Source: Kiritimatiellia bacterium
GTDB lineage: Bacteria > Verrucomicrobiota > Kiritimatiellia > CAIQIC01 > Lenti-01
NCBI GenBank assembly: GCA_017445365.1
Contig: JAFSUH010000175.1
Location: 1 to 53,839, forward strand
DNA length: 53,839 bases
Direction of reading: 5' to 3'
Shown: piece after piece, positions 4,702 through 52,574 of the stretch
How the letters are laid out: every line of letters begins with the position of its first letter
Numbering within the stretch: the first letter of the stretch is position 1
Made by a program: the position numbers and the translations under genes
Notes under the pieces: model-generated
The model's input: the letters and a program-made list of their open reading frames with translations, nothing else
Told to the model about the DNA's origin: nothing
The model's database searches: none

Positions 4702-4838
4702 TTTTGCCAATGCTTGGCAAAAACCGCGAAAATTTGCCAAGGCTTGGCAAAATCGGCATGGAGACGGAAGCGGCGCTGCACGAAGTGGGAGGGCCGCAAG
4801 CAACGGGTCGGACGACCCTTGCCAAAGCTTGGCAAAAT
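4702..4838. repeat. array A2: 3 units of TTTGCCAA-N3-TTGGCAAA
   Basis: Units at 4702, 4732 (30 bp apart) and 4818. Confidence 0.85.
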
Positions 4839-9271: not shown

Positions 9272-9433
9272 TTTTGCCGATGCTTGCCAAAGGGACGTCC
9301 GGCCCGTTGCTTGCACTTCCTCCGTTTCGCGTGGAAGTGCATCCGGCTTCACGCGCAATTTGCCAAACATTGGCAAATTCGAAAGGTGGGGCGAGGCGTC
9401 CCCGCCGAGCCGTTTGCCAAACCTTTCCCAAAC
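9272..9433. repeat. array A3: one intact and two degenerate TTTGCCAA-N3-TTGGCAAA units
   Basis: Intact unit atttgccaaacattggcaaatt at 9358-9379. Degenerate units at 9272 and 9412. Confidence 0.7.
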
Positions 9434-17998: not shown

Positions 17999-18124
17999 AT
18001 TTGCCAATGTTTGGCAAATTTTACGTGATTTTGCCAAGGTTTGGCAAAATGTTTCCCGTGCGCGGCAAATGGATTTGCCAAGGTTTGGCAAATTTTGCCC
18101 GTTTTTGCCAATGTTTGGCAAAAC
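17999..18124. repeat. array A4: 4 units TTTGCCAA-N3-TTGGCAAA with spacing 30/44/30 bp
   Basis: Units start at 17999, 18029, 18073 and 18103. Lies in the divergent promoter region between 17904 (-) and 18150 (+). Confidence 0.9.
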
Positions 18125-18621: not shown

Positions 18622-18717
18622 TTTTGCCAAACATTGGCAATTTGGAACCCTTTTTGCCAAACATTGGCAAAATCAAAAACGCGCGCAGTGGGTGTTTTTG
18701 CCAAACATTGGCAATTT
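18622..18717. repeat. array A5: 3 units TTTTGCCAAACATTGGCAA with spacing 30/44 bp
   Basis: Units start at 18622, 18652 and 18696. Confidence 0.9.
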
Positions 18718-21474: not shown

Positions 21475-22329
21475 TCACGCATCCGCCGTCGGTTCCCATG
21501 CGCCGGACGGAAGGAGTTGCAAGTCTTTGACGAGACGCCGTGCCTTGTGCCGGAAGGCCGGTCTTTCGGCCTCGTGGAAGCGTTTCATGCCTAGTTCCAG
21601 AAATGCGGCCGATTGGTCGATGCCGAAAAACTTCCGCCCCAACAACCGCGCCGCGATGCCGGTCGTGCAGGAACCCGCGAAGGGGTCGAGAACCCAATCC
21701 CCCTCCTTCGTGGAAGCGAGGAGGATGCGGACGAGGAGCGAAAGCGGTTTTTGCGTGGGATGCTTGCCGAACGTCTTTTCCCAGCGGCCGATGGCGGCCA
21801 GCGGCCACACGTCGCGCATCTGTTTCCCGCCCGCCAGTTTGCGCATGAGGGAGTAGTTGAAAAAATGCGGCGTTTTCGCTTCGCGCCGCGCCCAGATCAC
21901 GAACTCGGCCGAATGCGTGAAATAGCGGCAGGAAAGGTTGGGCGGCGGATTCGTCTTCTGCCAGACGACGACGTTCAGGATTTTGTAGCCGAGTCCGGCA
22001 AGCGCGTTGGCGGTTTGGAACGTGTTGTGGTGCGTGCCGCTGATCCACACCGTTCCGGACGGCTTGAGGATGCGGCGCAACGCTTCGAGCCACCGGCGCG
22101 CGAAGGCGGCGTCCGCCTCCCCGCCGCGCGATTTGTCCCAGTCGCCCTTGTCCACGCAGACCTGCCGCCCGCTTTGCACGGAGATTCCGCCGTTGGAAAG
22201 GAAATACGGCGGATCGGCGAACGCGCAATCGAACTGGAACCCCTTCCGGGCGATTTCCTCCATCCACTCGACGCAATCGCCGCACCCGAGCGCCCAGCGC
22301 GCGTCGGGCGATTTGAAAAAGGGTTGCAT
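21475..22329 (-). CDS. beta-class N6-adenine (or N4-cytosine) DNA methyltransferase, second methylase of the RM cassette
   Basis: DPPY (FADPPYFL) precedes the AdoMet motif DPFAGSCTTG. The ATG overlaps the endonuclease stop (TGATG). Confidence 0.85.
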   Translation of the reverse strand: MQPFFKSPDARWALGCGDCVEWMEEIARKGFQFDCAFADPPYFLSNGGISVQSGRQVCVDKGDWDKSRGGEADAAFARRWLEALRRILKPSGTVWISGTHHNTFQTANALAGLGYKILNVVVWQKTNPPPNLSCRYFTHSAEFVIWARREAKTPHFFNYSLMRKLAGGKQMRDVWPLAAIGRWEKTFGKHPTQKPLSLLVRILLASTKEGDWVLDPFAGSCTTGIAARLLGRKFFGIDQSAAFLELGMKRFHEAERPAFRHKARRLVKDLQLLPSGAWEPTADA

Positions 22330-23252
22330 CACGGCGAGAGAATCTCCCCGAGGATGCCGGTCAGCAGGTTCTTCCCGCGGACGGCGGCGAGATTGAGGAG
22401 GTAGTCGGCTTTCTGGCAATACTCCCGCAGGGGCGCTTGCGTTCCCTTCCATCCGTAGCCGTCGGTGATCCAGAGGAATTCCACGCGCCGTTGCCGGGAA
22501 TACCGCTTGAACATTTCGCAGTATTCGGTTGCCGTTGATTTCAGTTTCGACCCGCCGCCGCCGTAGAAATTCGTTTCCAGGAGGAACAGGCGGTCGTCCC
22601 GGAAAATCGCGAAATCGACGCGGCGCTCGGATTTGTCCATTTGCAGGTCGAAGTCCCAATGCGCCTTGATCTTGGCCTTGGTCGCCTGCGCCATGTAGTC
22701 GGCGTGCAACGCCTCCGCCGTTTCCACGACGAAATTCTCGACGAGCGATTCCATCAGGTCTCCCGAGCGGTTCTTGCGCGCGTTGCTGTCGAGCCCGACC
22801 TCGATTCCGAAGTAGTAGTCCGGAATGCTCTTGACCTTCCGGTCGGCGAGGATGTCCAGAAGCCCGCTCTGCCGGAGGAAGCGGACGCACGAGGCGATGT
22901 CGGCCGCGGAAGGCGCACGCCCCTCGAAATCGAAGCGTTTGACGAGGAGTTTTTTCGCATCCACCATGACGTCGAAAGAGTGCTCGCGGGAGGCAAGAAG
23001 CAACGGCATCACGCGGAGGACTTTCGGATAGTCGGCGATGAGCGATGACAAATCGCGCTCGATGTCCTCGGATCCCACGAGCGTGTCGAGCAGGGCCAAT
23101 TCCCGGACGTGCGGTGCCACGTTTGCCTTTACGCGGTTCCAATCCACGAACCAATCGCTCCGGTGGATGGTCGGAATGAGCGTGTCGATGAGGAAGCGGA
23201 AGGATTCGTCCTCGTTCCGGCATCCGAGGAGGGCCGTTTCGATCGGGTTCAT
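22329..23252 (-). CDS. DpnII/MboI-family type II restriction endonuclease (GATC-type by family)
   Basis: 307 aa. Layout and segments (FGIEVGLDSNARKNRSG, DFAIF...LLETNFYGGGGSK) recalled from the DpnII family. Sandwiched between two methylases with overlapping start/stop codons. Confidence 0.75.
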   Translation of the reverse strand: MNPIETALLGCRNEDESFRFLIDTLIPTIHRSDWFVDWNRVKANVAPHVRELALLDTLVGSEDIERDLSSLIADYPKVLRVMPLLLASREHSFDVMVDAKKLLVKRFDFEGRAPSAADIASCVRFLRQSGLLDILADRKVKSIPDYYFGIEVGLDSNARKNRSGDLMESLVENFVVETAEALHADYMAQATKAKIKAHWDFDLQMDKSERRVDFAIFRDDRLFLLETNFYGGGGSKLKSTATEYCEMFKRYSRQRRVEFLWITDGYGWKGTQAPLREYCQKADYLLNLAAVRGKNLLTGILGEILSP

Positions 23253-24169
23253 GAGGGGACTCCGTTCGTGAAATTGGAGACAAGGATTTCGCCGAGTTTT
23301 CCGCGCCTGTCCGCCTTCGCGTTGACCATTCGCGAAGCCTGGACGCCTCGGATGTCGAATCCGGCGTAGAGTCCGTCGAAAAAGGTGTCGCCGGGGTCCG
23401 TCCCTTTCGGGTCGGAATTGCTGAGGAGCCAGCGGACGCCTTTGCGGTCCAAGGTGCGGCAAACGTCGGCGAGGCGGTGTTGCTCCCTGTCGTCGAAGCC
23501 GCCTTGCGTGTAATCGCGGAACCCCGACGTGGCCGAAATCGGCCGGTAGGGCGGATCGAAATAAACAAACCAATCCGGCCCGGCCCCGGCAAGGGCATCC
23601 GCGAAGTCGCCGTCGAGGATTTCGACTCCCGCAAGCGCCGCCGAGTCGGCCAGCAACGTTTCCCGGTCGCAAATCCGCGGATTCGCGTAGCGTCCGAAAG
23701 GGACGTTGAACGCACCTTTCGCGTTCACCCGGTAAAGCCCGTTGAAGCAGGTGCGGTTGAGAAAGAGCATTCGGGCCGTCCGCCGGACGGGATTGTCCGC
23801 GCAATCGGCAATGGCGGCGTTGTAGGCGTCGCGCACGGCAAGGTAGAACGCGCGGCGGTCCTCCTCTCCGGTTCGGGCGCGGTAGTCCGTTTGAAGTTCA
23901 TCCAAGGCTTCGACCAGTTCGGCGGCATGCGATTGGACAACCCGCCAGGCATTCGCGAGATCGGGATTCGAATCGTTGACAACGACCCGTTCCGGGCGGA
24001 GACCCTTGGCGAGAAGATGGAACAGCAACGCCCCGCCGCCGACGAACGGCTCCGCATAGACACGGACCGTCCTCTTGAAATCCTCCGGCAACCGGGCATC
24101 CAGTTCTGGGAGCAGTTGCGTTTTCCCGCCAGCCCATTTGATGAATGGTTTTATCGTCTCTCGTTTCAT
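23249..24169 (-). CDS. dam: Dam-family (alpha-class) DNA adenine methyltransferase
   Basis: IKWAGGKTQLLPEL, EPFVGGGALLF (FxGxG) before FDPPYRP (DPPY). The stop overlaps the endonuclease ATG (ATGA). Confidence 0.9.
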   Translation of the reverse strand: MKRETIKPFIKWAGGKTQLLPELDARLPEDFKRTVRVYAEPFVGGGALLFHLLAKGLRPERVVVNDSNPDLANAWRVVQSHAAELVEALDELQTDYRARTGEEDRRAFYLAVRDAYNAAIADCADNPVRRTARMLFLNRTCFNGLYRVNAKGAFNVPFGRYANPRICDRETLLADSAALAGVEILDGDFADALAGAGPDWFVYFDPPYRPISATSGFRDYTQGGFDDREQHRLADVCRTLDRKGVRWLLSNSDPKGTDPGDTFFDGLYAGFDIRGVQASRMVNAKADRRGKLGEILVSNFTNGVPS

Positions 24170-24260: not shown

Positions 24261-24320
24261 TGATCAGATTACACGGAGAGAACGCGCCCGGAGGGGCGCG
24301 TCTGCTGATGAATCTGATCA
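24261..24320. promoter_or_regulatory. nested inverted repeat with two GATC sites upstream of the RM operon
   Basis: tgatcagat (24261-24269) and atctgatca (24312-24320) flank the GC hairpin gcgccc-ggag-gggcgc. Lies 90-150 nt upstream of the dam start. Confidence 0.3.
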
Positions 24321-24494
24321 AAGCCGCAGGCTTCAATCGGTACGACGGAAGGAAACGTGTGGTAGTATTTCCGAGGAGGCGTCGTTTAGCAGATCGCTAA
24401 AAGGTTGGATTGTTCAAGGCGGGATGCTGGGTGGGAACGGTTCTCCGTGGGGGTGGATTTCCTGCGCGGCGGATGCCGCGGAACGATGGAATCA

Positions 24495-24780
24495 CTTTGC
24501 CAAAAGCCCCCGCCCCCGGCAAGAATCCTTCCGTTGCCGGTTCCGGTTTTGCCAAACATTGGCAAATCCCAAAATGGTAAGGTGAGCCGTTCTCCAGTCC
24601 CGCTGGTTCCGCCCATCCCTTCCCAATCCTTGGGGGGTGCGGGGGTTTCCCCCGTCCGTTGTCATGCGCCGCGCATGCGCGGCGCCAAATCGAACCCCGC
24701 CAAAGGTGCCAACCCCCATTTTGCCAATGTTTGGAAAAAACGCCCTGAATTTGCCAAACATTGGCAACCCCTCCCCACCA
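24495..24780. repeat. array A6: TTTGCCAA-N3-TTGGCAAA units (3 good, 1 degenerate) plus a G5/C5 hairpin
   Basis: Units at 24547, 24729 and 24759 (30 bp apart). Degenerate unit at 24495. ggggggtgcgggggtttcccccgtccgttgtc at about 24633. Confidence 0.8.
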
Positions 24781-25810
24781 TTTCCCAGCCACTCCAAAAA
24801 CTGTCTTTTCAGTATCCGCGAAGCGGTTTCAATGTCCCACCCCTTTGCGGACCTCGCGCACTTTGCGCGAGCTTTTTCCCTTCCCCTCTCCCAAGCCCGA
24901 CAATCCTGCATTTCCTGTCGGAACCTTCTCTTTTCAATATCCGCTTTTATGGCCTTCATAGTCTCCGTTTCCCGCCCTTGTGTATTCTGCCTTGTGGATT
25001 GTCCATTGCCTTCCTGCTCCTGTCCGAAAGGCTTCTCCATTGAAAGCCCACGGACGCTTCAATGGTTTTCAATGTCTCCGTGACTCTCATTCTCCGTTTC
25101 CTCCGTGTTTGCAAACTGCATGATTGCGAAACCAATCAATCCCCGCCCCCTTTCCTCCCCAAATCCTTCGCATTCATTGTCCCCTCCTCTCTCCCCCCCC
25201 TCATTCCACCAATTTTCCTCTCCAACACACAAGGCACTATGTCACATAAATCTCTATATCGCTGTTTCTTCGCGTGGGCATTGTTTGCCATCCCTGCGAC
25301 ATCGTGGTCGAATCGCCCCAACGGAGGGAATGCCCCGTCTGCACGAAGGATGCGTTTGGAATCGATCTTCTCCAACTCGTCGGGGACGCAAGTTGCGCCC
25401 CGTAGAAATCACTTGACACGATTCCCGCGCCCTGATGTCCGCGCTTTCCTCCGGGACGACCTCGCATCCGGCCTGCCATCGGAAGTGTACGAGTCCCCCT
25501 CTCCGACTGTGTCTCCGTCCGCAACATCCGCTCTTTCCGATTTTGAGAACACCCCACAACGAGCCTCTGGCCTCGCTAGCGTTCCCCTCCCCTGCGCGAG
25601 TCTTCTTGCTCTTTTTCTCCGTTTTACCCTCCAATCCGCCCGTTTTCCGCCGGAAGGTGAAAAGCCGTTTTGGCAAGTATTCATGCGGTCGAAATGCAGA
25701 TTTTGCATCCAAAAGAACTCCGCCAGAATCGAAAAATGCAAAATGAGTCGTGTTCTTGCCCGTGAATTCCGCTTTTTTGAAACGGCTTTTCTCCCTCTTT
25801 TTCGCCTCTT

Positions 25811-25864
25811 GAAACAAAATATATTATTTTAAGATTTATGCGACAAAGTATTTTATAAAATCGT
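25811..25864. other. AT-rich island (10 G/C in 54 nt); candidate DNA-unwinding element or divergent promoter
   Basis: gaaacaaaatatattattttaagatttatgcgacaaagtattttataaaatcgt in an otherwise GC-rich genome. Lies at the point where the plus strand switches from C-rich to G-rich. Confidence 0.35.
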
Positions 25865-26193
25865 TACCCCTTCCCCACCCTTTCGAACGAATCGGTCAAG
25901 GTCGGTGACGGTCCGGGGCCGGGACGGAGAGTCGGGATGGGCGAAGCGGGATGGCGGGAATCTTCGGAGGATTCCAATCCGTCTTGCACGGAAGGAATCC
26001 TGGTCTCTGTTCCGTGAGAGTGATTCCCTTCCCTCCAAGGAACGAGGCTTGTGGGTATCGGTTGGACACAGGGAAGCAGGGCGAGCAAAAGAAAGAATGA
26101 CAGAAGGAGCGGGAAAACGCTTGAAGGAACGGGAGGGCTTCCCTACCCTCCCGTTGCGCGGATTGCGGAAGTTGCGCGAAAACAAGGATTTCC

Positions 26194-28185
26194 ATGACAA
26201 ATCTTTCCAAAACAGGGTTCGATATCGTCGTCGTCGGGGCCGGACATGCCGGTTGCGAGGCAGCCTTGGCAGCGGCGCGGATGGGTGCCGATACCGCCTT
26301 GATTTCCTTCTCGATCGAGGCGGCGGCGCGGATGAGCTGCAATCCCTCCATCGGAGGAATCGCCAAGTCCCACATGGTTTTCGAGTTGGATGCGCTGGGA
26401 GGGGAGATGGCCCGCAACACGGATGCGACCGGCCTCCAGTTCCGCGTGCTCAACACCCGGAAAGGCCCCGCCGTCCAGGCAAACCGCGCCCAATGCGACA
26501 AGGCCGCCTATGCCGCACGCATGGTGCATGTCCTCCGCGCAACGGCGAATCTGGCGCTTTTGGAAGACGATGTGACCGGCGTGCTTGTCGAAAACGACTG
26601 CATCACAGGCGTGAGGACTCTCCATCATGGCAATCTCTCCGCCAAGAAAGTAATCCTGACGGCGGGGACCTTTCTCAAAGGACGGATTTTCGTGGGAAAG
26701 GATTGCACGCCGGGCGGTCGCATCGGGGAAGATTCGGAAGAAACCTTGAGTGGACAGTTGAAGGACATCGGCTTTGAGGTGTCTCGCATGAAGACAGGAA
26801 CGCCCCCCCGCCTCAAGAAGGAATCCCTGCATTACGACAAGATGGTGCGGCAGGACGGTTTCAATCCGCCCCCGTTCTTCAGTTTCGAGGCGCGGGAAGC
26901 GGTCGATGCGCTTGTTCCACGTGGAACATTGAACGACGTATTTCCTGTCCCGCACGCCAGTAACGGAGATTCGACGCGCCTGGCGGAATCTCCTGTTCCA
27001 CGTGGAACATCGGAAAATGATTTCGCTCGCACGGCCCCGTTTTCCGGGATTTCTTTCGGTGTTTTGCCGTTTTCCCATTGGAAACCGGGGAGTGGTGAAA
27101 TGCCGTGTTTCCTGACGCACACAACGCCGAAAACGATGGAGATCATCCGCTCGCACCTCAAAGATTCCGCTCTTTACGGCGGTCTGATCGAGGTTGGAAG
27201 TCCGCGTTATTGTCCTTCCATCGAGGACAAGGTCGTCAAGTTCCCCGGGCGGGAAGAACACCACGTTTTCATCGAGCCGGAAGGGCGGGATGCCCCGCAA
27301 ATTTATCCGAACGGAACAAGCAACAGTCTTCCCTTGAATATCCAAGTGGAAATGATTCACAGCATCCCGGGTCTGGAGGATGCCGAGTTTTTCGCGCCGG
27401 GGTACGCCATCGAGTACGATTTCTTTCCTCCGACGCAGTTGCGACACTCCCTAGAAACAAAAAAAGTTGAAGGTCTGTATTTTGCTGGGCAGATCAACGG
27501 AACGACCGGATACGAGGAAGCCGCGGTGCAGGGATTCATGGCCGGCGTCAACGCCGCCCGTAGCATCGGGGGATTGCCACCGCTCGTCTTCGCCCGACAC
27601 GAGGCCTACATCGGAGTTTTGATTGACGACTTGGTGACCAAGGGGACCAATGAGCCATACCGGATGTTCACCTCCCGGGCGGAACACCGCCTGCTTCTCC
27701 GGCAGGACAACGCCATTTTCCGATTGCGGAATGCCGCCAAGGAAATCGGCATCGTGGACAAGGGCAAAATCGCGAAAATCCAAGAATTCTTGAGGGAAAT
27801 CGACGAAACGAAAAATCGTTTGCACCACACGAAATCCGGCGGGATAACGATTGCAAAACGCATACTTCAATCAAATACTGATTATGCGACTATGCGGGAA
27901 ATCGGGGCGCTTCCGTCTTTCGTGCGGCAGGAGGTGCTGTTTTCGTTGCGGTATGCCGGATACATCGAGCGGGAGGAGCGGAAAATCGCTTCTGCCCGGA
28001 ATCTGGAAGAAACCGCGATTCCCCAAACCTTCGATTTCATGTCTCTGGCGGCGTTGCGCTACGAGGCGCGGGAGAAGCTTTCGGCCATCCGCCCGGCGAC
28101 CTTGGGCCAGGCTTCCCGCATCTCGGGTGTCACCCCTGCCGACATCGCCATTCTCGCCGTCTGGCTCAAACGCGCCGGAACCTGA
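26194..28185 (+). CDS. mnmG: tRNA uridine 5-carboxymethylaminomethyl modification enzyme MnmG (GidA), with a lineage-specific insertion
   Basis: DIVVVGAGHAGCEAA, MSCNPSIGGIAKSH, KTGTPPR, GPRYCPSIEDK-type (SPRYCPSIEDK), GQINGTTGYEEAA, PYRMFTSRAEHRL, GQASRISGVTPADI. Confidence 0.95.
   Translation: MTNLSKTGFDIVVVGAGHAGCEAALAAARMGADTALISFSIEAAARMSCNPSIGGIAKSHMVFELDALGGEMARNTDATGLQFRVLNTRKGPAVQANRAQCDKAAYAARMVHVLRATANLALLEDDVTGVLVENDCITGVRTLHHGNLSAKKVILTAGTFLKGRIFVGKDCTPGGRIGEDSEETLSGQLKDIGFEVSRMKTGTPPRLKKESLHYDKMVRQDGFNPPPFFSFEAREAVDALVPRGTLNDVFPVPHASNGDSTRLAESPVPRGTSENDFARTAPFSGISFGVLPFSHWKPGSGEMPCFLTHTTPKTMEIIRSHLKDSALYGGLIEVGSPRYCPSIEDKVVKFPGREEHHVFIEPEGRDAPQIYPNGTSNSLPLNIQVEMIHSIPGLEDAEFFAPGYAIEYDFFPPTQLRHSLETKKVEGLYFAGQINGTTGYEEAAVQGFMAGVNAARSIGGLPPLVFARHEAYIGVLIDDLVTKGTNEPYRMFTSRAEHRLLLRQDNAIFRLRNAAKEIGIVDKGKIAKIQEFLREIDETKNRLHHTKSGGITIAKRILQSNTDYATMREIGALPSFVRQEVLFSLRYAGYIEREERKIASARNLEETAIPQTFDFMSLAALRYEAREKLSAIRPATLGQASRISGVTPADIAILAVWLKRAGT
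26913..26928. promoter_or_regulatory. parS: parS-type centromere site 1 (TGTTCCACGTGGAACA)
   Basis: Perfect 16-bp palindrome. 15/16 match to the chromosomal parS consensus TGTTNCACGTGAAACA. Confidence 0.7.
26994..27009. promoter_or_regulatory. parS: parS-type centromere site 2 (TGTTCCACGTGGAACA)
   Basis: Identical 16-mer 81 bp downstream of site 1. Confidence 0.7.
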
Positions 28186-28506: not shown

Positions 28507-29802
28507 ATGACTGATTTCCGTCAAGACCCCCGCTTTGCCGATCTCGCGCCTTTCCCGTCAAAACTTTGGCTGTCTTCCCCCACCATGCACGGGAAAGAAT
28601 TGCACTGGGTGGAAGAGGCCATCCGCACCAACTGGGTCACCACGCTCGGCGAAAACATCAACGAAGTCGAACGCGCCACCGCCTCCCTCGTCGGGCGCAA
28701 GTGTGCCGTCGGCCTTTCCGCCGGGACCGCCGCCCTCCACCTCGCCGTCAAACTCTGCGGCGAAGCCCTCTACGGCCAGCCCCGCGCCGGACACGGCACC
28801 CTCGAAGGCCATCGCGCCTTCTGCTCCGACCTCACGTTCGACGCAACCGTCAATCCTGTCTCCTACGAAGGGGGCGAAGCCGTCTTCGTCGATACTGAAC
28901 GCGACACCTGGAACATGGATCCTGCCGCCCTCGAAAAAGCTTTCGACCTTTATCCGGACGTGCGTCTCGTCGTTCTCGCCCATCTCTACGGAACGCCTGC
29001 CAGAATTGGCGAAATCCGCGCCATTTGCGACGCCCATCGCGCCTTGATCGTCGAAGACGCCGCCGAATCCTTCCTCGCTACCCACCAGGGCCGCCAGACC
29101 GGTACTTTCGGCGATGTCTCGATTTTTTCCTTCAATGGCAACAAGCTCGTCACCGGCAGTTCGGGCGGGATGCTCCTGACCGACAACCCCGAATGGGCGG
29201 ATAAAACCCGCAAGTGGTCCACCCAGTCGCGCGAAGCCGCCCCGTGGTATCAGCACGAGGAGCTCGGCTACAACTACCGGATGAGCAACATCGTCGCCGG
29301 CGTCGTCCGCGGGCAGCTTCCATACGCAGCCGAACACCGCGACCAAAAGAAGGCCATCTACGAGCGCTACAAGGCAGGCCTTGCCGACCTTCCCGTCTCT
29401 TTGAACCCGTTCCTCCCCGACGACGAGCCGAATTTCTGGCTCTCCTGCCTTTTGGTCGACACCGACGCGATGGCACCGCAAGTCCGCGGCGAACGCGACG
29501 CGCTCTACCGCCACGAGCCGGGCAAGTCATCGCCGACGGAAATCTTGGAAGCGCTCGCGGCTTTCAACGCCGAGGGCCGCCCCCTCTGGAAGCCGATGCA
29601 CCTGCAGCCGATCTACCGCATGAACCCGTTCGTGACGACAGCGGGCAGCGGCCGCGCCCGTTCCAACGCCTACATCTCCGGCGGCGCACCCGACGTCGGC
29701 GCCGACCTCTTCGCCCGCGGCCTGTGCCTGCCCTCCGACAACAAGATGACGCCCGATCAACAGGCCCTCATCATCGACATTGTCCACCGTTGTTTCCGAT
29801 GA
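28507..29802 (+). CDS. DegT/DnrJ/EryC1/StrS-family PLP aminotransferase (EpsN/PglE-like sugar aminotransferase)
   Basis: 431 aa. Contains FSFNGNKLVTGSSGGMLL (PLP-lysine region) and the N-terminal WVTTLGENINEVE pattern. Confidence 0.88.
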   Translation: MTDFRQDPRFADLAPFPSKLWLSSPTMHGKELHWVEEAIRTNWVTTLGENINEVERATASLVGRKCAVGLSAGTAALHLAVKLCGEALYGQPRAGHGTLEGHRAFCSDLTFDATVNPVSYEGGEAVFVDTERDTWNMDPAALEKAFDLYPDVRLVVLAHLYGTPARIGEIRAICDAHRALIVEDAAESFLATHQGRQTGTFGDVSIFSFNGNKLVTGSSGGMLLTDNPEWADKTRKWSTQSREAAPWYQHEELGYNYRMSNIVAGVVRGQLPYAAEHRDQKKAIYERYKAGLADLPVSLNPFLPDDEPNFWLSCLLVDTDAMAPQVRGERDALYRHEPGKSSPTEILEALAAFNAEGRPLWKPMHLQPIYRMNPFVTTAGSGRARSNAYISGGAPDVGADLFARGLCLPSDNKMTPDQQALIIDIVHRCFR

Positions 29803-30137
29803 CCCCGCCCCCGGCAAAACCATGCACCCCCGGCACCCCGGACGGCGAAGGCGTCCTCTCCTCAAAACGACAATGTCCCGATAAAAATCGAATCGTTGAT
29901 ATGTTGCGCCAACAACCCGGCCTCAACCGCAAACAACTGGCAGACATACTCTCGGTGGAGATCAAGACCGTTACCCGGGCTTTGGCGGAACTCACCCACA
30001 TGGTCGAACACCGTGGCAGAAGAAAACCTGCGGCTACCATCTCGTCTCTCCGCCCCACGAGTCTCCGTCCGCGTCGGATCCGACCGTGCCGGCCATTGGA
30101 AAGTCCTCGTTCCGCCGTTGCATGGGAACGGAAATAG
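29799..30137 (+). CDS. winged-helix (wHTH) protein, probably disrupted at its 3-prime end
   Basis: The ATG overlaps the aminotransferase stop (ATGA). HTH segment IVDMLRQQPGLNRKQLADILSVEIKTVTRALAEL. The conserved C-terminal VRVGSDRAGHWKVLVP is present but in another frame (ORF 29896..30144). Confidence 0.35.
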   Translation: MTPPPAKPCTPGTPDGEGVLSSKRQCPDKNRIVDMLRQQPGLNRKQLADILSVEIKTVTRALAELTHMVEHRGRRKPAATISSLRPTSLRPRRIRPCRPLESPRSAVAWERK

Positions 30138-30170
30138 TGTGTAATGTTCCCTCATCGCCAAGGAGTGAAC

Positions 30171-30461
30171 ATGCCGACCATTGAATCTATAGTGAAACCA
30201 CGCGGGAGCCGTATCAGCGTGGCCGTCCCGAAGGAGTACGCCTCGTATTCCTTCCAAGTCATACTTGTCCCCATCCGCCCCGAAGAACCTTCCGGGGCGA
30301 AACCCGCCCCGCGTTCCGCCCGGCAAATGCAATCCCTCGCCGATGCCCTTCTGTCCCTCCCCTCTCCGGGCGATGACTGGTCCCCCGACGCCTCCCGTGC
30401 CGACGACCCTCCATCGTTCTTCGAGCGCTCCGGCGGATTCTGTTCGGAGGCATTCGCTTGA
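30171..30461 (+). CDS. putative antitoxin of the VapC toxin
   Basis: AGGAG RBS 5 nt upstream. 96 aa. The stop overlaps the TTG start of the PIN gene. Family not recognised. Confidence 0.5.
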   Translation: MPTIESIVKPRGSRISVAVPKEYASYSFQVILVPIRPEEPSGAKPAPRSARQMQSLADALLSLPSPGDDWSPDASRADDPPSFFERSGGFCSEAFA

Positions 30462-30880
30462 AATACCTCATCGATACCTGTGTCGCTTCGGAATCCGCAA
30501 AACGCACGCCTTCCGGGGCCGTGACGCAATGGTTCGCCTCCGTCCCGGCTGCAGACGTATTCATTCCTTCCGTCGCCCTCGGCGAACTGTACAAGGGCAT
30601 CTCCCGGCTTGCGCCGGACGATCCCAGGCGTCCCCGGCTCGTTGACTGGCTGGAGAACCTCCGGAATGTATTCGCAGGCAGGATTGTCGCCTTCGACGAA
30701 CGTGCCGCCGTGACGTGGGGCCGCCTTTGCGGCGAAGCCGAACGCGCAGGACGCAAACGCCCATCCATCGACGCCCAGATCGCGGCCATCGCGCTGGCCA
30801 ACGGCATGACCCTCGTCACGCGCAACGTCGATGACATGGCGGGATTCGACGCCCCCATCTTCAACCCTTTCCCGCCCTGA
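30458..30880 (+). CDS. vapC: PIN-domain ribonuclease toxin VapC
   Basis: KYLIDTCV (first acidic residue), SIDAQIAAIALANGMTLVTRNVDDM (conserved D and TRN.D tail). Confidence 0.8.
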   Translation: MKYLIDTCVASESAKRTPSGAVTQWFASVPAADVFIPSVALGELYKGISRLAPDDPRRPRLVDWLENLRNVFAGRIVAFDERAAVTWGRLCGEAERAGRKRPSIDAQIAAIALANGMTLVTRNVDDMAGFDAPIFNPFPP

Positions 30881-30888
30881 CCGAAAGG

Positions 30889-31080
30889 TTGCCAGAAACA
30901 GCGGTCGCCATTCTTTCGGCCATGAACAAAACCCCAGCCATTACCATCGCCGAATTTTCCACAGCCTTGGACATCTCCTCCAGCGCCGTCGAAAAACACA
31001 TCTCCCGCTTCCGTTCGCGCGGCCTTCCCGTCCGCGTCGGCTCCGACCGTGCCGGCCATTGGAAAGTCCTCGTTCCATGA
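30889..31080 (+). CDS. small wHTH protein (intact copy)
   Basis: ITIAEFSTALDISSSAVEKHISRFRSRGLPVRVGSDRAGHWKVLVP. TTG start at 30889, or ATG at 30922. Confidence 0.45.
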   Translation: MPETAVAILSAMNKTPAITIAEFSTALDISSSAVEKHISRFRSRGLPVRVGSDRAGHWKVLVP

Positions 31081-31158
31081 GTTGCTTCTCCTTTTGTGAT
31101 TCTGGCTCTGCAAGGCATTTGCCGCGTTTGGACACTTGTCGAGCCAACGGGAATTTCA

Positions 31159-31247
31159 CCCGCGGGCTGTGCCTGCCTTCCGACAACAAGATGACGCCCT
31201 TCCAGCAAGATTTAGTCATCGACATCATCCACCGTTGCTTCCTATGA
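31159..31247 (+). pseudogene. duplicated, diverged 3-prime end of the aminotransferase gene
   Basis: Encodes RGLCLPSDNKMTPFQQDLVIDIIHRCFL*, versus RGLCLPSDNKMTPDQQALIIDIVHRCFR* for the true gene end (29713-29802). Confidence 0.7.
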
Positions 31248-31966
31248 CCATGGCTTCATCTCTTCCTGTCAACTCCGCCCCTCTCCGCATTCTCGTCGTC
31301 GCCGCCCATCCCGACGATGAGGTTCTCGGCATGGGGGGAACCATTGCCAAACTTGCAGCCAACGGGGCCGAAATCAAACTTCTCATTGTCACCGACGGAT
31401 CATCTTCCCAATACCGAGGCAATCCCGACCTTCCGGCCATCATCGAGGCGAAAAAAGAGGAAACGGCCCGTTGCGCCGCCATTCTCGGCATCCGGGAAAT
31501 TCTCCATGGGGGTCTCCCCGACATGCGTCTTGACATCACACCCCATGTCCAAATCAACCAGATTATCGAGTCGGCCGTCGAGTCGTTCCGCCCTTCCGTC
31601 GTTTTTACCCACTTTTCCGGCGACATCAACGCCGACCACCAGCGCGTCAGCCACTCCACGCTTGTCGCGTGCCGCCCAACCGCATCCCAATGCGTGAAAC
31701 GGCTCTATTTCTATTCCGTCCCTTCATCTACCGAATGGAACGCCCCCGCCGCAACCAACGCTTTTCTTCCCAACGTCTTTTTTGACATTTCCGGCCCCTG
31801 CGCCGACCTCAAGTACCGGGCCTTTGCCTGTTACGGAACCGAGCTCCGTCCCTATCCCCACCCGCGCAGCGTCCAATATCTCCAAAATGCCGACGCCGCC
31901 GTCGGCAACCGCGTCGGTCTCCCGTCCGCGGAAGCTTTCATGCTTGTCCGGTCCGTCAACCCATGA
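31244..31966 (+). CDS. PIG-L/LmbE-family N-deacetylase
   Basis: ILVVAAHPDDEVLGMGGTIAKL motif. The ATG overlaps the remnant stop (ATGA). Confidence 0.85.
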   Translation: MTMASSLPVNSAPLRILVVAAHPDDEVLGMGGTIAKLAANGAEIKLLIVTDGSSSQYRGNPDLPAIIEAKKEETARCAAILGIREILHGGLPDMRLDITPHVQINQIIESAVESFRPSVVFTHFSGDINADHQRVSHSTLVACRPTASQCVKRLYFYSVPSSTEWNAPAATNAFLPNVFFDISGPCADLKYRAFACYGTELRPYPHPRSVQYLQNADAAVGNRVGLPSAEAFMLVRSVNP

Positions 31967-52448: not shown

Positions 52449-52574
52449 TTTTGCCAATGTTCGGCAAATCCGGCCCGTTTTTGCCGAACATTGGCAAATC
52501 CATCCGCCGCGCGCGTTCCCGGTTTTGCCAATGTTTGGCAAATTTCACGCGATTTTGCCAAGGATTGGCAAAAT
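52449..52574. repeat. array A7: 4 units TTTGCCAA-N3-TTGGCAAA with spacing 30/44/30 bp
   Basis: Units start at 52449, 52479, 52523 and 52553. Lies in the divergent promoter region between 52350 (-) and 52650 (+). Confidence 0.9.

What the first reader, a model, noticed from the sequence alone, without database searches (positions are those of the whole stretch)
26887..27099. Two perfect parS centromere palindromes carried on an in-frame insertion inside mnmG
- The 16-bp perfect palindrome TGTTCCACGTGGAACA occurs twice, at 26913-26928 and 26994-27009. The copies are 81 bp (27 codons) apart.
- It matches the canonical chromosomal ParB-binding consensus TGTTNCACGTGAAACA at 15/16. From memory, it is the fully symmetric variant used by some bacteria.
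- Both copies lie in a stretch of about 71 codons between FFSF and PCFLTHT. As I recall, E. coli MnmG has only about 11 residues there.
- Each palindrome is translated as VPRGT. The rest of the insert is not repeated.

A universally conserved tRNA-modification gene therefore appears to have gained about 60 extra codons that host two centromere sites. This also marks the window as origin-proximal.
Basis: partly seen in the sequence, partly recalled or inferred. Interest (0 to 1): 0.8.

Follow-up and report, generated by a model that had tools for sequence, protein, structure and literature searches.

The report
Centromere sites inside the mnmG gene
Two copies of the bacterial chromosome-segregation site parS lie inside a floppy extra loop of the tRNA-modifying enzyme gene mnmG, and the DNA sequence (read in any of three frames) is conserved across a whole bacterial class, so the loop appears to exist in order to carry the centromere.

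Summary
TGTTCCACGTGGAACA occurs exactly twice in the window (26913-26928 and 26994-27009), inside mnmG (26194-28185, +). Both copies lie in an in-frame segment that is 68 aa longer than in typical MnmGs and is predicted to be disordered.

The parS reading is strongly supported by comparison:
- 33 of 34 Kiritimatiellia/Verrucomicrobiota relatives (about 60% aa identity) and all 120 closest database homologs carry 1-5 copies at the same loop.
- The copies are read in all three frames (FHVEQ, VPRGT, CSTWN).
- The 14-bp core is nearly invariant, while the linker between copies is only 52% identical and varies in length. In some lineages the insert grows to about 400 aa.
- The 16-mer equals P. aeruginosa parS2/parS3.
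- In a metagenome scan, perfect pairs of it lie mostly beside rsmG/parA/parB/mnmG.
- In several relatives the mnmG sites are 1-6 kb from dnaA.

Not supported:
- Origin proximity of this window. There is no dnaA and no DnaA-box cluster within 26 kb on either side.
- The insert is ancient, not a recent gain.

Main gap: no ParB gene was found in the window or in the clade DNA I could reach.

Verdict: a new variant of a known kind, namely a centromere housed in a dedicated, expandable loop of a conserved enzyme.

The parts
26194..28185 (+). mnmG (gidA), 663 aa. It encodes the FAD-dependent tRNA U34 carboxymethylaminomethyl-modification enzyme and is the host gene of the centromere sites.
   Evidence: Pfam GIDA E=7e-146 and SAM_GIDA_C. 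PDB sequence hits 2ZXH, 3CP2 and 9HIP. AF2 model pTM 0.82 superposes on GidA structures, TM-score normalised to target 0.82-0.87.
26887..27102 (+). In-frame insert (aa 232-303) between FFSF and PCFLTHT. It is a predicted disordered surface loop, hypervariable in length and sequence among relatives.
   Evidence: Homology to solved MnmGs breaks here. pLDDT is 27-38 for aa 243-300. The KTGTPPR..YCPSIEDK segment is 138 aa against a mode of 70 in outgroups. Alignment of relatives.
26913..26928 (.). parS copy 1, TGTTCCACGTGGAACA. It starts at codon position 3 and is read as VPRGT (aa 241-245).
   Evidence: Identical to P. aeruginosa parS2/parS3. The orthologous copy is conserved in relatives.
26929..26993 (+). 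65-nt linker between the two parS copies. It is unconserved filler that keeps the reading frame open.
   Evidence: Start-to-start spacing among relatives ranges from 36 to 135 nt. The linker is 52% identical pairwise, against 98% for the parS copies.
26994..27009 (.). parS copy 2, TGTTCCACGTGGAACA. Read as VPRGT (aa 268-272).
   Evidence: The orthologous VPRGT copy is present in nearly all relatives.

Best explanation
The two 16-mers are chromosomal parS sites, the loading sites for the CTP-dependent ParB clamp. They nucleate the partition complex on which ParA acts, and probably SMC loading as well. In Kiritimatiellia and allied lineages the parS cluster lies inside the coding sequence of mnmG, in a surface loop of the enzyme that tolerates any sequence.

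Selection acts on the DNA. The 14-bp core GTTCCACGTGGAAC is kept whatever the reading frame. The protein simply reads through it as VPRGT, FHVEQ or CSTWN, and the intervening codons drift and expand freely. This parS variant (GG at positions 12-13) has no stop codon in any of the six frames, so it can be embedded in an ORF in any register.

Copy number (1-5) and spacing probably change by local duplication or deletion between copies.

- **Shown:** the sequence identity to validated parS, the DNA-level conservation, the position of the loop, its predicted disorder, origin proximity in relatives, and the association of the same 16-mer pair with parAB in other bacteria.
- **Inferred:** that a ParB of this organism binds here, that these are the main centromere, and that MnmG remains active with the loop.
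For: 1. **Identity to known parS.** The 16-mer is identical to P. aeruginosa parS2/parS3 and P. putida parS, one base from M. xanthus parS, and 15/16 to the general consensus.
2. **Presence across relatives.** 33 of 34 GTDB relatives at about 60% aa identity carry 1-4 copies (0-2 mismatches) at the same place in mnmG, and none in their +-3 kb flanks. All 120 closest homologs carry at least one strict parS-encoded peptide in this segment; 98 carry two and 5 carry three.
3. **Frame independence.** Copy 1 is usually read as FHVEQ, copy 2 as VPRGT and extra copies as CSTWN. The commonest spacing, 58 nt, is not a multiple of 3.
4. **Conservation at the DNA level.** The inner 14 bases are 93-100% conserved, against 40-77% in the +-12 nt flanks. 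Gene-wide, only 0.8% of third codon positions are invariant. The parS copies are 97.9% identical pairwise, the linker 52%.
5. **Pattern of variants.** 24 of 30 mismatches fall at positions 1 and 16, and only 1 of 24 variant sites remains palindromic. That fits protein half-site recognition, not stem pairing.
6. **Wide GC range.** The exact 16-mer was confirmed in DNA of distant lineages with 48-66% GC and inserts of up to about 400 aa.
7. **Origin proximity in relatives.** dnaA lies 0.6-5.2 kb from mnmG in L023, L039, L040, L045, L046, L126 and L165.
8. **Independent metagenome control.** Of 120 stretches with a perfect pair, 74 lie within 600 nt of parA/parB/rsmG/mnmG and 53 carry ParA/ParB. 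The 15 inside mnmG are all at this loop.
9. **Low copy number.** There are 2 copies in the 53.8-kb window, and 2 in 38 kb around the origin of a relative.
10. **Structure.** The insert is predicted disordered in an otherwise well-folded MnmG.
Against: - No ParB or ParA gene was found in the window. The tblastn query was validated against PDB 6SDK.
- None was found in 463 kb of clade loci, in 38 kb walked around mnmG-dnaA on a 738-kb contig, or next to any of the 15 loop-type metagenome loci. The reader protein is therefore unverified.
- In the window's own sub-lineage mnmG is not near dnaA.
- There are no binding data.
- The genome-wide copy number could not be counted.
Confidence: 0.8

Rival explanations
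1. The palindrome is the operator of some other DNA-binding protein, not the partition ParB. It could be a regulator of mnmG or mnmE, or a ParB-like or XRE-type factor. The resemblance to parS would then be convergence, or re-use after loss of ParAB.
For: No ParAB was found in any clade DNA examined. The loop-type loci never have rsmG-parA-parB next to mnmG, unlike the classic loci.
Against: There is 16/16 identity to sites bound by ParB in Pseudomonas. The variation pattern (free outer bases, fixed 14-bp core) is that of chromosomal parS. The same pair sits beside parAB in dozens of other bacteria. The sites are origin-proximal in relatives. An intragenic position 700 nt into the ORF is an odd place for an operator.
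Confidence: 0.08
2. It is an RNA or DNA secondary-structure element. The copies would pair with each other, or each would form a hairpin, to regulate mnmG translation, mRNA stability or transcription.
For: The two copies are predicted to pair as a 16-bp stem enclosing the linker (MFE -83 kcal/mol, z = -2.0).
Against: Any two copies of a palindrome would pair in this way. Some lineages have a single copy and others up to five. The spacing ranges from 36 to 135 nt. The sequence itself is invariant rather than covarying, and only 1 of 24 variants is compensated. There is no Rfam match.
Confidence: 0.04
3. These are relic centromere sites. ParABS was lost in the clade, and the sites persist only because they are now part of a coding sequence.
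For: ParAB was not found. In the window's sub-lineage the sites are no longer demonstrably near dnaA.
Against: The surrounding loop is free to vary (52% identity, large length changes), so purifying selection on the protein cannot explain perfect 16-mers in three different frames, including at wobble positions. A few lineages do show decayed motifs (P0121, P0126), which shows what relaxation looks like.
Confidence: 0.04
4. It is a mobile or REP-like palindromic element, or a functional peptide motif (VPRGT), that happens to lie in MnmG.
For: It is palindromic and copy number varies between lineages.
Against: The 16-mer is not dispersed. In the clade loci every copy is in mnmG or within 180 nt upstream of it. 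The window's real dispersed palindrome is a different sequence. The peptide differs with the frame (FHVEQ, VPRGT, CSTWN), which excludes a peptide function.
Confidence: 0.02

Closest known systems
Pseudomonas aeruginosa parS2/parS3 (and P. putida parS)
   Same: It is the identical 16-bp palindrome TGTTCCACGTGGAACA. It occurs at low copy number and is clustered near oriC. Some P. aeruginosa parS sites are intragenic, and their mutagenesis had to preserve the ORF.
   Different: In Pseudomonas the sites lie in ordinary sequence of assorted genes beside a gidAB-parAB operon. Here they sit in a dedicated, lineage-wide insertion of one particular gene, parAB is not nearby, and the copies are kept in different reading frames.
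Classic gidA-gidB-parA-parB origin cluster with intergenic parS
   Same: It shows the same association of parS with mnmG/gidA. In the metagenome scan, 74 of 120 perfect pairs lie within 600 nt of parA/parB/rsmG/mnmG. In L049 parS-type sites even fall in the mnmG 5' end, the mnmG C-terminal linker and the rsmG 3' end, right before parAB.
   Different: In the classic loci the pairs are mostly intergenic and adjacent to parA. In the loop-type lineages rsmG-parA-parB are absent from the neighbourhood, and the sites lie inside a grown protein loop.
Bacillus subtilis parS within the spo0J coding sequence (own knowledge, Lin and Grossman 1998; not checked here)
   Same: It is a functional chromosomal parS embedded in a protein-coding gene near the origin.
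   Different: It is a single site within normal coding sequence of the ParB gene itself. There is no insertion, no array and no frame variability.
Multi-copy parS arrays, for example Myxococcus xanthus (22 sites, TGTTCCACGTGGAACG)
   Same: The site is nearly the same, with several closely spaced copies forming one centromere region.
   Different: Those arrays are spread over a region of the chromosome, not packed into one ORF.

Membership tests
Chromosomal parS (ParABS class Ia centromere site) | 16-bp palindrome matching TGTTNCACGTGAAACA | tested here: met
   15/16 to the consensus and 16/16 to P. aeruginosa parS2/parS3.
Chromosomal parS (ParABS class Ia centromere site) | Bound by a ParB (GERR box plus HTH) encoded in the same genome | not testable with these tools
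   No ParB or ParA was found in the window or in 463 kb of clade loci.
Chromosomal parS (ParABS class Ia centromere site) | Few copies, clustered, not dispersed | tested here: met
   There are 2 copies in 53.8 kb at up to 3 mismatches. There are 2 in 38 kb of a relative's origin region. All 86 clade sites are in mnmG or within 180 nt upstream of it. The genome-wide count was not possible.
Chromosomal parS (ParABS class Ia centromere site) | Origin-proximal location | tested here: inconclusive
   Met in relatives, where dnaA is 0.6-5.2 kb away in L023, L039, L040, L045, L046, L126 and L165. Not shown for this window: there is no dnaA or DnaA-box cluster within 26 kb, nor in its sub-lineage.
Chromosomal parS (ParABS class Ia centromere site) | Sequence conserved as DNA, independent of coding context | tested here: met
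   Three reading frames are used. The core is 93-100% conserved against 52% in the linker, including at wobble positions.
MnmG/GidA tRNA-modification enzyme | GIDA FAD-binding fold plus the C-terminal helical domain, full length and with an open frame | tested here: met
   All relatives keep the frame open through the insert. Catalytic activity was not tested.
REP/MITE-type dispersed palindromic repeat | Many dispersed, mostly intergenic copies | tested here: not met
   Only the two intragenic copies are present. A different palindrome, TTGCCAA-N3-TTGGCAA, fills that role in the window.
Structured cis-regulatory RNA | Pairing maintained by compensatory changes; match to a known family | tested here: not met
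   Only 1 of 24 variants is compensated. There is no Rfam hit. The fold z-score is only -2.0.

The most novel reading that the evidence does not exclude
In Kiritimatiellia and allied lineages the principal, perhaps only, chromosomal centromere is written inside the ORF of a housekeeping enzyme. Selection on a cis-acting DNA site has created and maintains an intrinsically disordered protein loop. That loop can grow to about 400 aa and hold five parS copies, uncoupled from the parAB genes and, in some lineages including this one, from dnaA. ParB clamp loading and transcription or translation of mnmG would then share the same DNA, and possibly be coupled.
Probability: 0.45. Interest if true: 0.75.

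Novelty: new variant of a known kind. Interest (0 to 1): 0.62.

Why it matters
- **A DNA element shaping a protein.** This is a clean natural example of a non-coding function (a centromere) shaping a protein sequence. The enzyme carries a disordered insert whose only conserved residues are by-products of a DNA site, read in whichever frame it happens to fall. That bears on how disordered insertions arise in conserved proteins, and on how alignments of 'conserved peptide motifs' can mislead.
- **Relevance to chromosome biology.** It locates the likely centromere of a poorly studied, mostly uncultured class, and shows that parS can stay tied to mnmG even when parAB, and sometimes dnaA, are elsewhere.
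- **Testable questions.** Does ParB loading tolerate or modulate transcription through the site? Does the centromere follow mnmG when the gene moves?
- **Practical use.** The motif pair is a simple marker for the origin region in MAGs of this clade.

Tried and rejected
1. Pfam scans of my own crude ORF picks in the window flanks gave almost nothing, because high-GC DNA produced wrong frames. I used the called genes from the look-up of encoding contigs instead.
2. The hunt for ParB/ParA failed throughout.
   - tblastn of the window and of all loci found nothing.
   - Walking 38 kb on a 738-kb contig found nothing, and neither did extending L046.
   - The one apparent hit (L166) is a ParB-N-like domain fused to an MscS channel, without a GERR box or HTH.
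   - I ran no further search on ParB. The top-120 lists cannot be steered to this clade, and context look-ups were exhausted.
3. I tested whether oriC lies in the unannotated 24.3-26.2 kb upstream of mnmG. There is no DnaA-box cluster, tRNA or Rfam hit. Rejected.
4. The RNA hairpin, peptide motif and REP/MITE readings were tested and rejected.
5. Livny et al. 2007 could not be read. Searches for prior reports of parS inside mnmG, or for ParB in Kiritimatiellota, found nothing relevant.
6. Source names for the large-insert and second-clade representatives were unavailable, apart from one MAG labelled Bacteroidales that is probably mis-binned.
7. A crude NJ tree could not decide between one and two origins of the loop state.
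Full report
**1. Observation**

TGTTCCACGTGGAACA is present exactly at window 26913-26928 and 26994-27009, 81 nt apart. These are the only matches on either strand of the 53,839-nt window, even with up to 3 mismatches. Shuffles give 0.21 such matches on average.

Both copies lie in ORF 26194-28185 (+), 663 aa. This is MnmG/GidA: Pfam GIDA 7e-146 and SAM_GIDA_C, and 3e-174 to Aquifex GidA. Both are translated VPRGT.

Alignment to solved MnmGs stops at query residue 232/233 and resumes at 294-302. Aquifex and E. coli have only 5-7 residues in between. Using two invariant anchors (KTGTPPR and YCPSIEDK), about 120 outgroup representatives have 68-77 residues between them (mode 70), while this protein has 138. 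The insertion is therefore real and about 68 aa long.

An AlphaFold2 model (pTM 0.82) gives pLDDT 27-38 for residues 243-300 and a well-folded remainder. The remainder superposes on GidA crystal and cryo-EM structures with a TM-score (normalised to target) of 0.82-0.87. The insert is a predicted disordered loop.

**2. Source of the window**

The window is a metagenome contig (ENA ERZ27256812 k141_504988). NCBI labels its MnmG as from a Kiritimatiellae MAG.

**3. Comparative evidence**

A scan of one genome per GTDB species returned 34 related loci at 51-68% aa identity (75% for one short fragment). All are Kiritimatiellia or 'Verrucomicrobiota' MAGs.
- In 33 of them mnmG carries 1-4 copies of the 16-mer (0-2 mismatches), about 700 nt into the gene. 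The 34th is a fragment that ends before this point.
- None has a copy in its +-3 kb flanks.
- All full-length ORFs stay open through the insert.

The copies are not in a constant reading frame.
- In most relatives copy 1 starts at codon position 2 and is read (M/L)FHVEQ.
- Copy 2 starts at codon position 3 and is read VPRGT.
- Extra copies start at position 1 and are read CSTWN.
- The commonest spacing, 58 nt, is not a multiple of three.
- In the window and its closest relatives (64-84% identity) all 2-3 copies are in the VPRGT frame.

Conservation is at the DNA level.
- Over 30 loci the inner 14 bases of each copy are 93-100% conserved, while the +-12 nt flanks are 40-77%.
- Gene-wide, only 0.8% of third codon positions are invariant.
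- Among the 17 loci with identical spacing, the two parS copies are 97.9% identical pairwise, the 42-nt linker 52%, and the adjacent coding sequence about 71%.
- Of 86 sites in non-redundant clade loci, 62 are exact. 24 of the 30 mismatches are at positions 1 and 16, and only one of the 24 variant sites is still palindromic.

This is the signature of a protein-recognised DNA site with a 14-bp core. It is not the signature of a peptide motif or of a base-paired stem.

**4. Breadth**

All 120 closest database homologs carry at least one strict parS-encoded pentapeptide in this segment. 98 carry two and 5 carry three.

In a search of 50%-identity cluster representatives, the top-ranking MnmGs have this segment expanded to 86-479 residues, with up to five copies in any of the three frames. 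Examples are P0127 (F,V,V,V,V), P0130 (five F), P0133 (F plus four C) and P0135 (four C in a 479-residue segment). They are separated by low-complexity, unconserved sequence.

For two such lineages I confirmed the exact 16-mers in DNA, at 48% and 53% GC. Two representatives show decayed motifs (P0121, P0126).

On a crude NJ tree with the loop masked, the loop-type proteins form one clade of 39 (37 with motifs, plus the 2 decayed ones) and a second clade of 10 (8 with motifs). I cannot resolve whether this reflects one origin or two.

**5. Is the 16-mer really a parS?**

It is identical to P. aeruginosa parS2/parS3 and to the P. putida site, and one base from the M. xanthus site. It matches the general chromosomal consensus TGTTNCACGTGAAACA at 15/16.

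As an independent control I scanned the metagenome collection for perfect pairs with a 20-50 nt gap.
- 74 pairs lie within 600 nt of parA, parB, rsmG or mnmG. This is the classic intergenic centromere of the gidAB-parAB cluster.
- 53 stretches also encode ParA or ParB.
- 27 stretches had no recognisable gene of this set.
- 15 pairs lie inside mnmG, and all 15 are at this same loop (segment 83-160 aa).

One unrelated lineage (L049) has dnaN-dnaA | yidC-mnmE-mnmG-rsmG-parA-parB. Its parS-type sites fall in the first codons of mnmG, in the mnmG C-terminal linker, and in the 3' end of rsmG.

So mnmG is a frequent neighbour and occasional host of parS generally. What is particular here is the dedicated, expandable loop.

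**6. Genomic context**

In relatives the sites are origin-proximal.
- dnaA-dnaN lie 5.2 kb downstream of mnmG in L039, L040 and L041.
- dnaA is at most 1.8 kb downstream in L023.
- dnaA is divergent, 1.8-2.5 kb upstream, in the large-insert lineages L045 and L046.
- dnaA is 0.6-4.5 kb away in L165 and L126.
- L046 and L043 have an extra copy just upstream of mnmG.

In the window this linkage is absent. mnmG is flanked by a DpnII-type restriction-modification cluster and by polysaccharide-synthesis genes. mnmE is missing upstream, and there is no dnaA, dnaN, rsmG or parAB and no DnaA-box cluster anywhere in the 53.8 kb. Its nearest sub-lineage also lacks dnaA within 10 kb.

**7. The missing reader**

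I found no ParB or ParA anywhere in clade DNA.
- The window has none.
- The 463 kb of loci held at that point have none.
- The 38 kb walked around mnmG-dnaA on a 738-kb contig has none.
- The extended L046 region has none.
- The 15 loop-type metagenome stretches have none. The one hit there (L166) is a ParB-N-like domain fused to an MscS channel, not a partition ParB.

This shows that parAB is not linked to mnmG or dnaA in these lineages.

**8. Mechanism proposed**

ParB dimers load at each 16-mer as CTP-dependent clamps and form the partition complex that ParA, and probably SMC, act on. This rests on established knowledge of class Ia ParABS (review PMC7022226).

The sites sit in a loop of MnmG where any sequence is tolerated. 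The DNA can therefore be held under selection for ParB binding while the ORF stays open.

This GG variant of parS has no stop codon in any of the six frames. The canonical TGTTTCACGTGAAACA contains TGA in frame 0 on both strands, which may be why this variant is the one embedded.

Repeated units in some inserts (for example P0130 and L137) suggest that copy number changes by local duplication. Spacing of 36-135 nt shows no helical phasing, as expected for independent loading sites.

**9. Rivals**

- A peptide function is excluded by the three frames.
- An RNA or cruciform role is unlikely. The fold in which the two copies pair (z = -2.0) is automatic for two palindromes. Copy number varies from 1 to 5, and the variants are not compensated.
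- A REP-like element is excluded by copy number. The window's real dispersed palindrome is TTGCCAA-N3-TTGGCAA.
- A different binding protein, or relic sites after loss of ParAB, cannot be fully excluded until ParB is found. The perfect conservation within a freely drifting loop argues against relics.

**10. Novelty**

Intragenic parS sites (P. aeruginosa; B. subtilis spo0J, from my own knowledge) and the gidA-parS neighbourhood are known.

I found no report of a clade-wide in-frame insertion of a conserved enzyme that houses the parS array in variable reading frames and grows to hundreds of residues. The Livny 2007 survey could not be consulted.

I rate it a new variant of a known kind, of moderate to high interest. 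The parS interpretation carries confidence of about 0.8.

Noticed in passing
window ~553-742, 4704-4819, 9274-9360, 18001-18105, 18624-18698, 24549-24751, 52451-52555: A dispersed palindromic repeat, TTGCCAA-NNN-TTGGCAA (best form TTTGCCAAACATTGGCAAA), occurs in small arrays of 2-6 copies spaced about 30 and 44 nt apart, apparently in intergenic DNA. It looks like a REP-like or regulator-site family and is unrelated to parS.
   Followed up: partly
window 24300-26190: About 1.9 kb upstream of mnmG holds only two called ORFs without any Pfam family. GC dips to 0.30-0.35 at 25741-25900. In relatives mnmE sits directly upstream of mnmG, but it is missing here. There is no DnaA-box cluster, tRNA or Rfam hit.
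   Followed up: partly
window 21475-24169 (-): A DpnII-type restriction-modification cluster lies immediately upstream of the mnmG region. It comprises an N6_N4 methyltransferase, a DpnII endonuclease and a D12-class adenine methyltransferase.
   Followed up: no
window 29710-31249: A 95-nt direct repeat (82% identical; 29710-29804 and 31155-31249) duplicates the 3' end of the DegT-family aminotransferase gene. A 49-nt repeat (98% identical; 30065-30113 and 31028-31076) lies inside it. Together they bracket a PIN-toxin gene (30458-30880) and its 96-aa partner. This looks like a toxin-antitoxin cassette inserted with a target duplication.
   Followed up: partly
L049 10008, 11626, 12506 (JGI 3300009777 contig, unrelated lineage): This locus has the classic dnaN-dnaA | yidC-mnmE-mnmG-rsmG-parA-parB-bactofilin layout. 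Its parS-type sites lie inside coding sequence: in the first codons of mnmG (read MFHVEQ), in the mnmG C-terminal linker (VPRGT), and in the 3' end of rsmG. Similar N-terminal or C-terminal motifs are seen in P0125, P0137, P0142 and P0206.
   Followed up: partly
L045 10001-13126; L046 10001-13510; proteins P0126-P0135, P0150, P0155, P0162: Some MnmG homologs reach 790-1169 aa. The same loop has grown to 200-480 residues of low-complexity sequence carrying 2-5 parS copies. P0134 and P0150 also appear to have further extensions elsewhere in the protein.
   Followed up: partly
L166 309-1592 (-): A 427-aa protein combines an MscS-like mechanosensitive-channel domain with a C-terminal ParB-N-like domain. 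It lacks a GERR box and an HTH. It is encoded about 0.5 kb downstream of a loop-type mnmG.
   Followed up: no
L045 2583-3203 and L046 1839-2339: A small XRE-family HTH protein (166-206 aa) is encoded next to dnaN in both large-insert lineages. Its role is unknown and I did not examine it.
   Followed up: no
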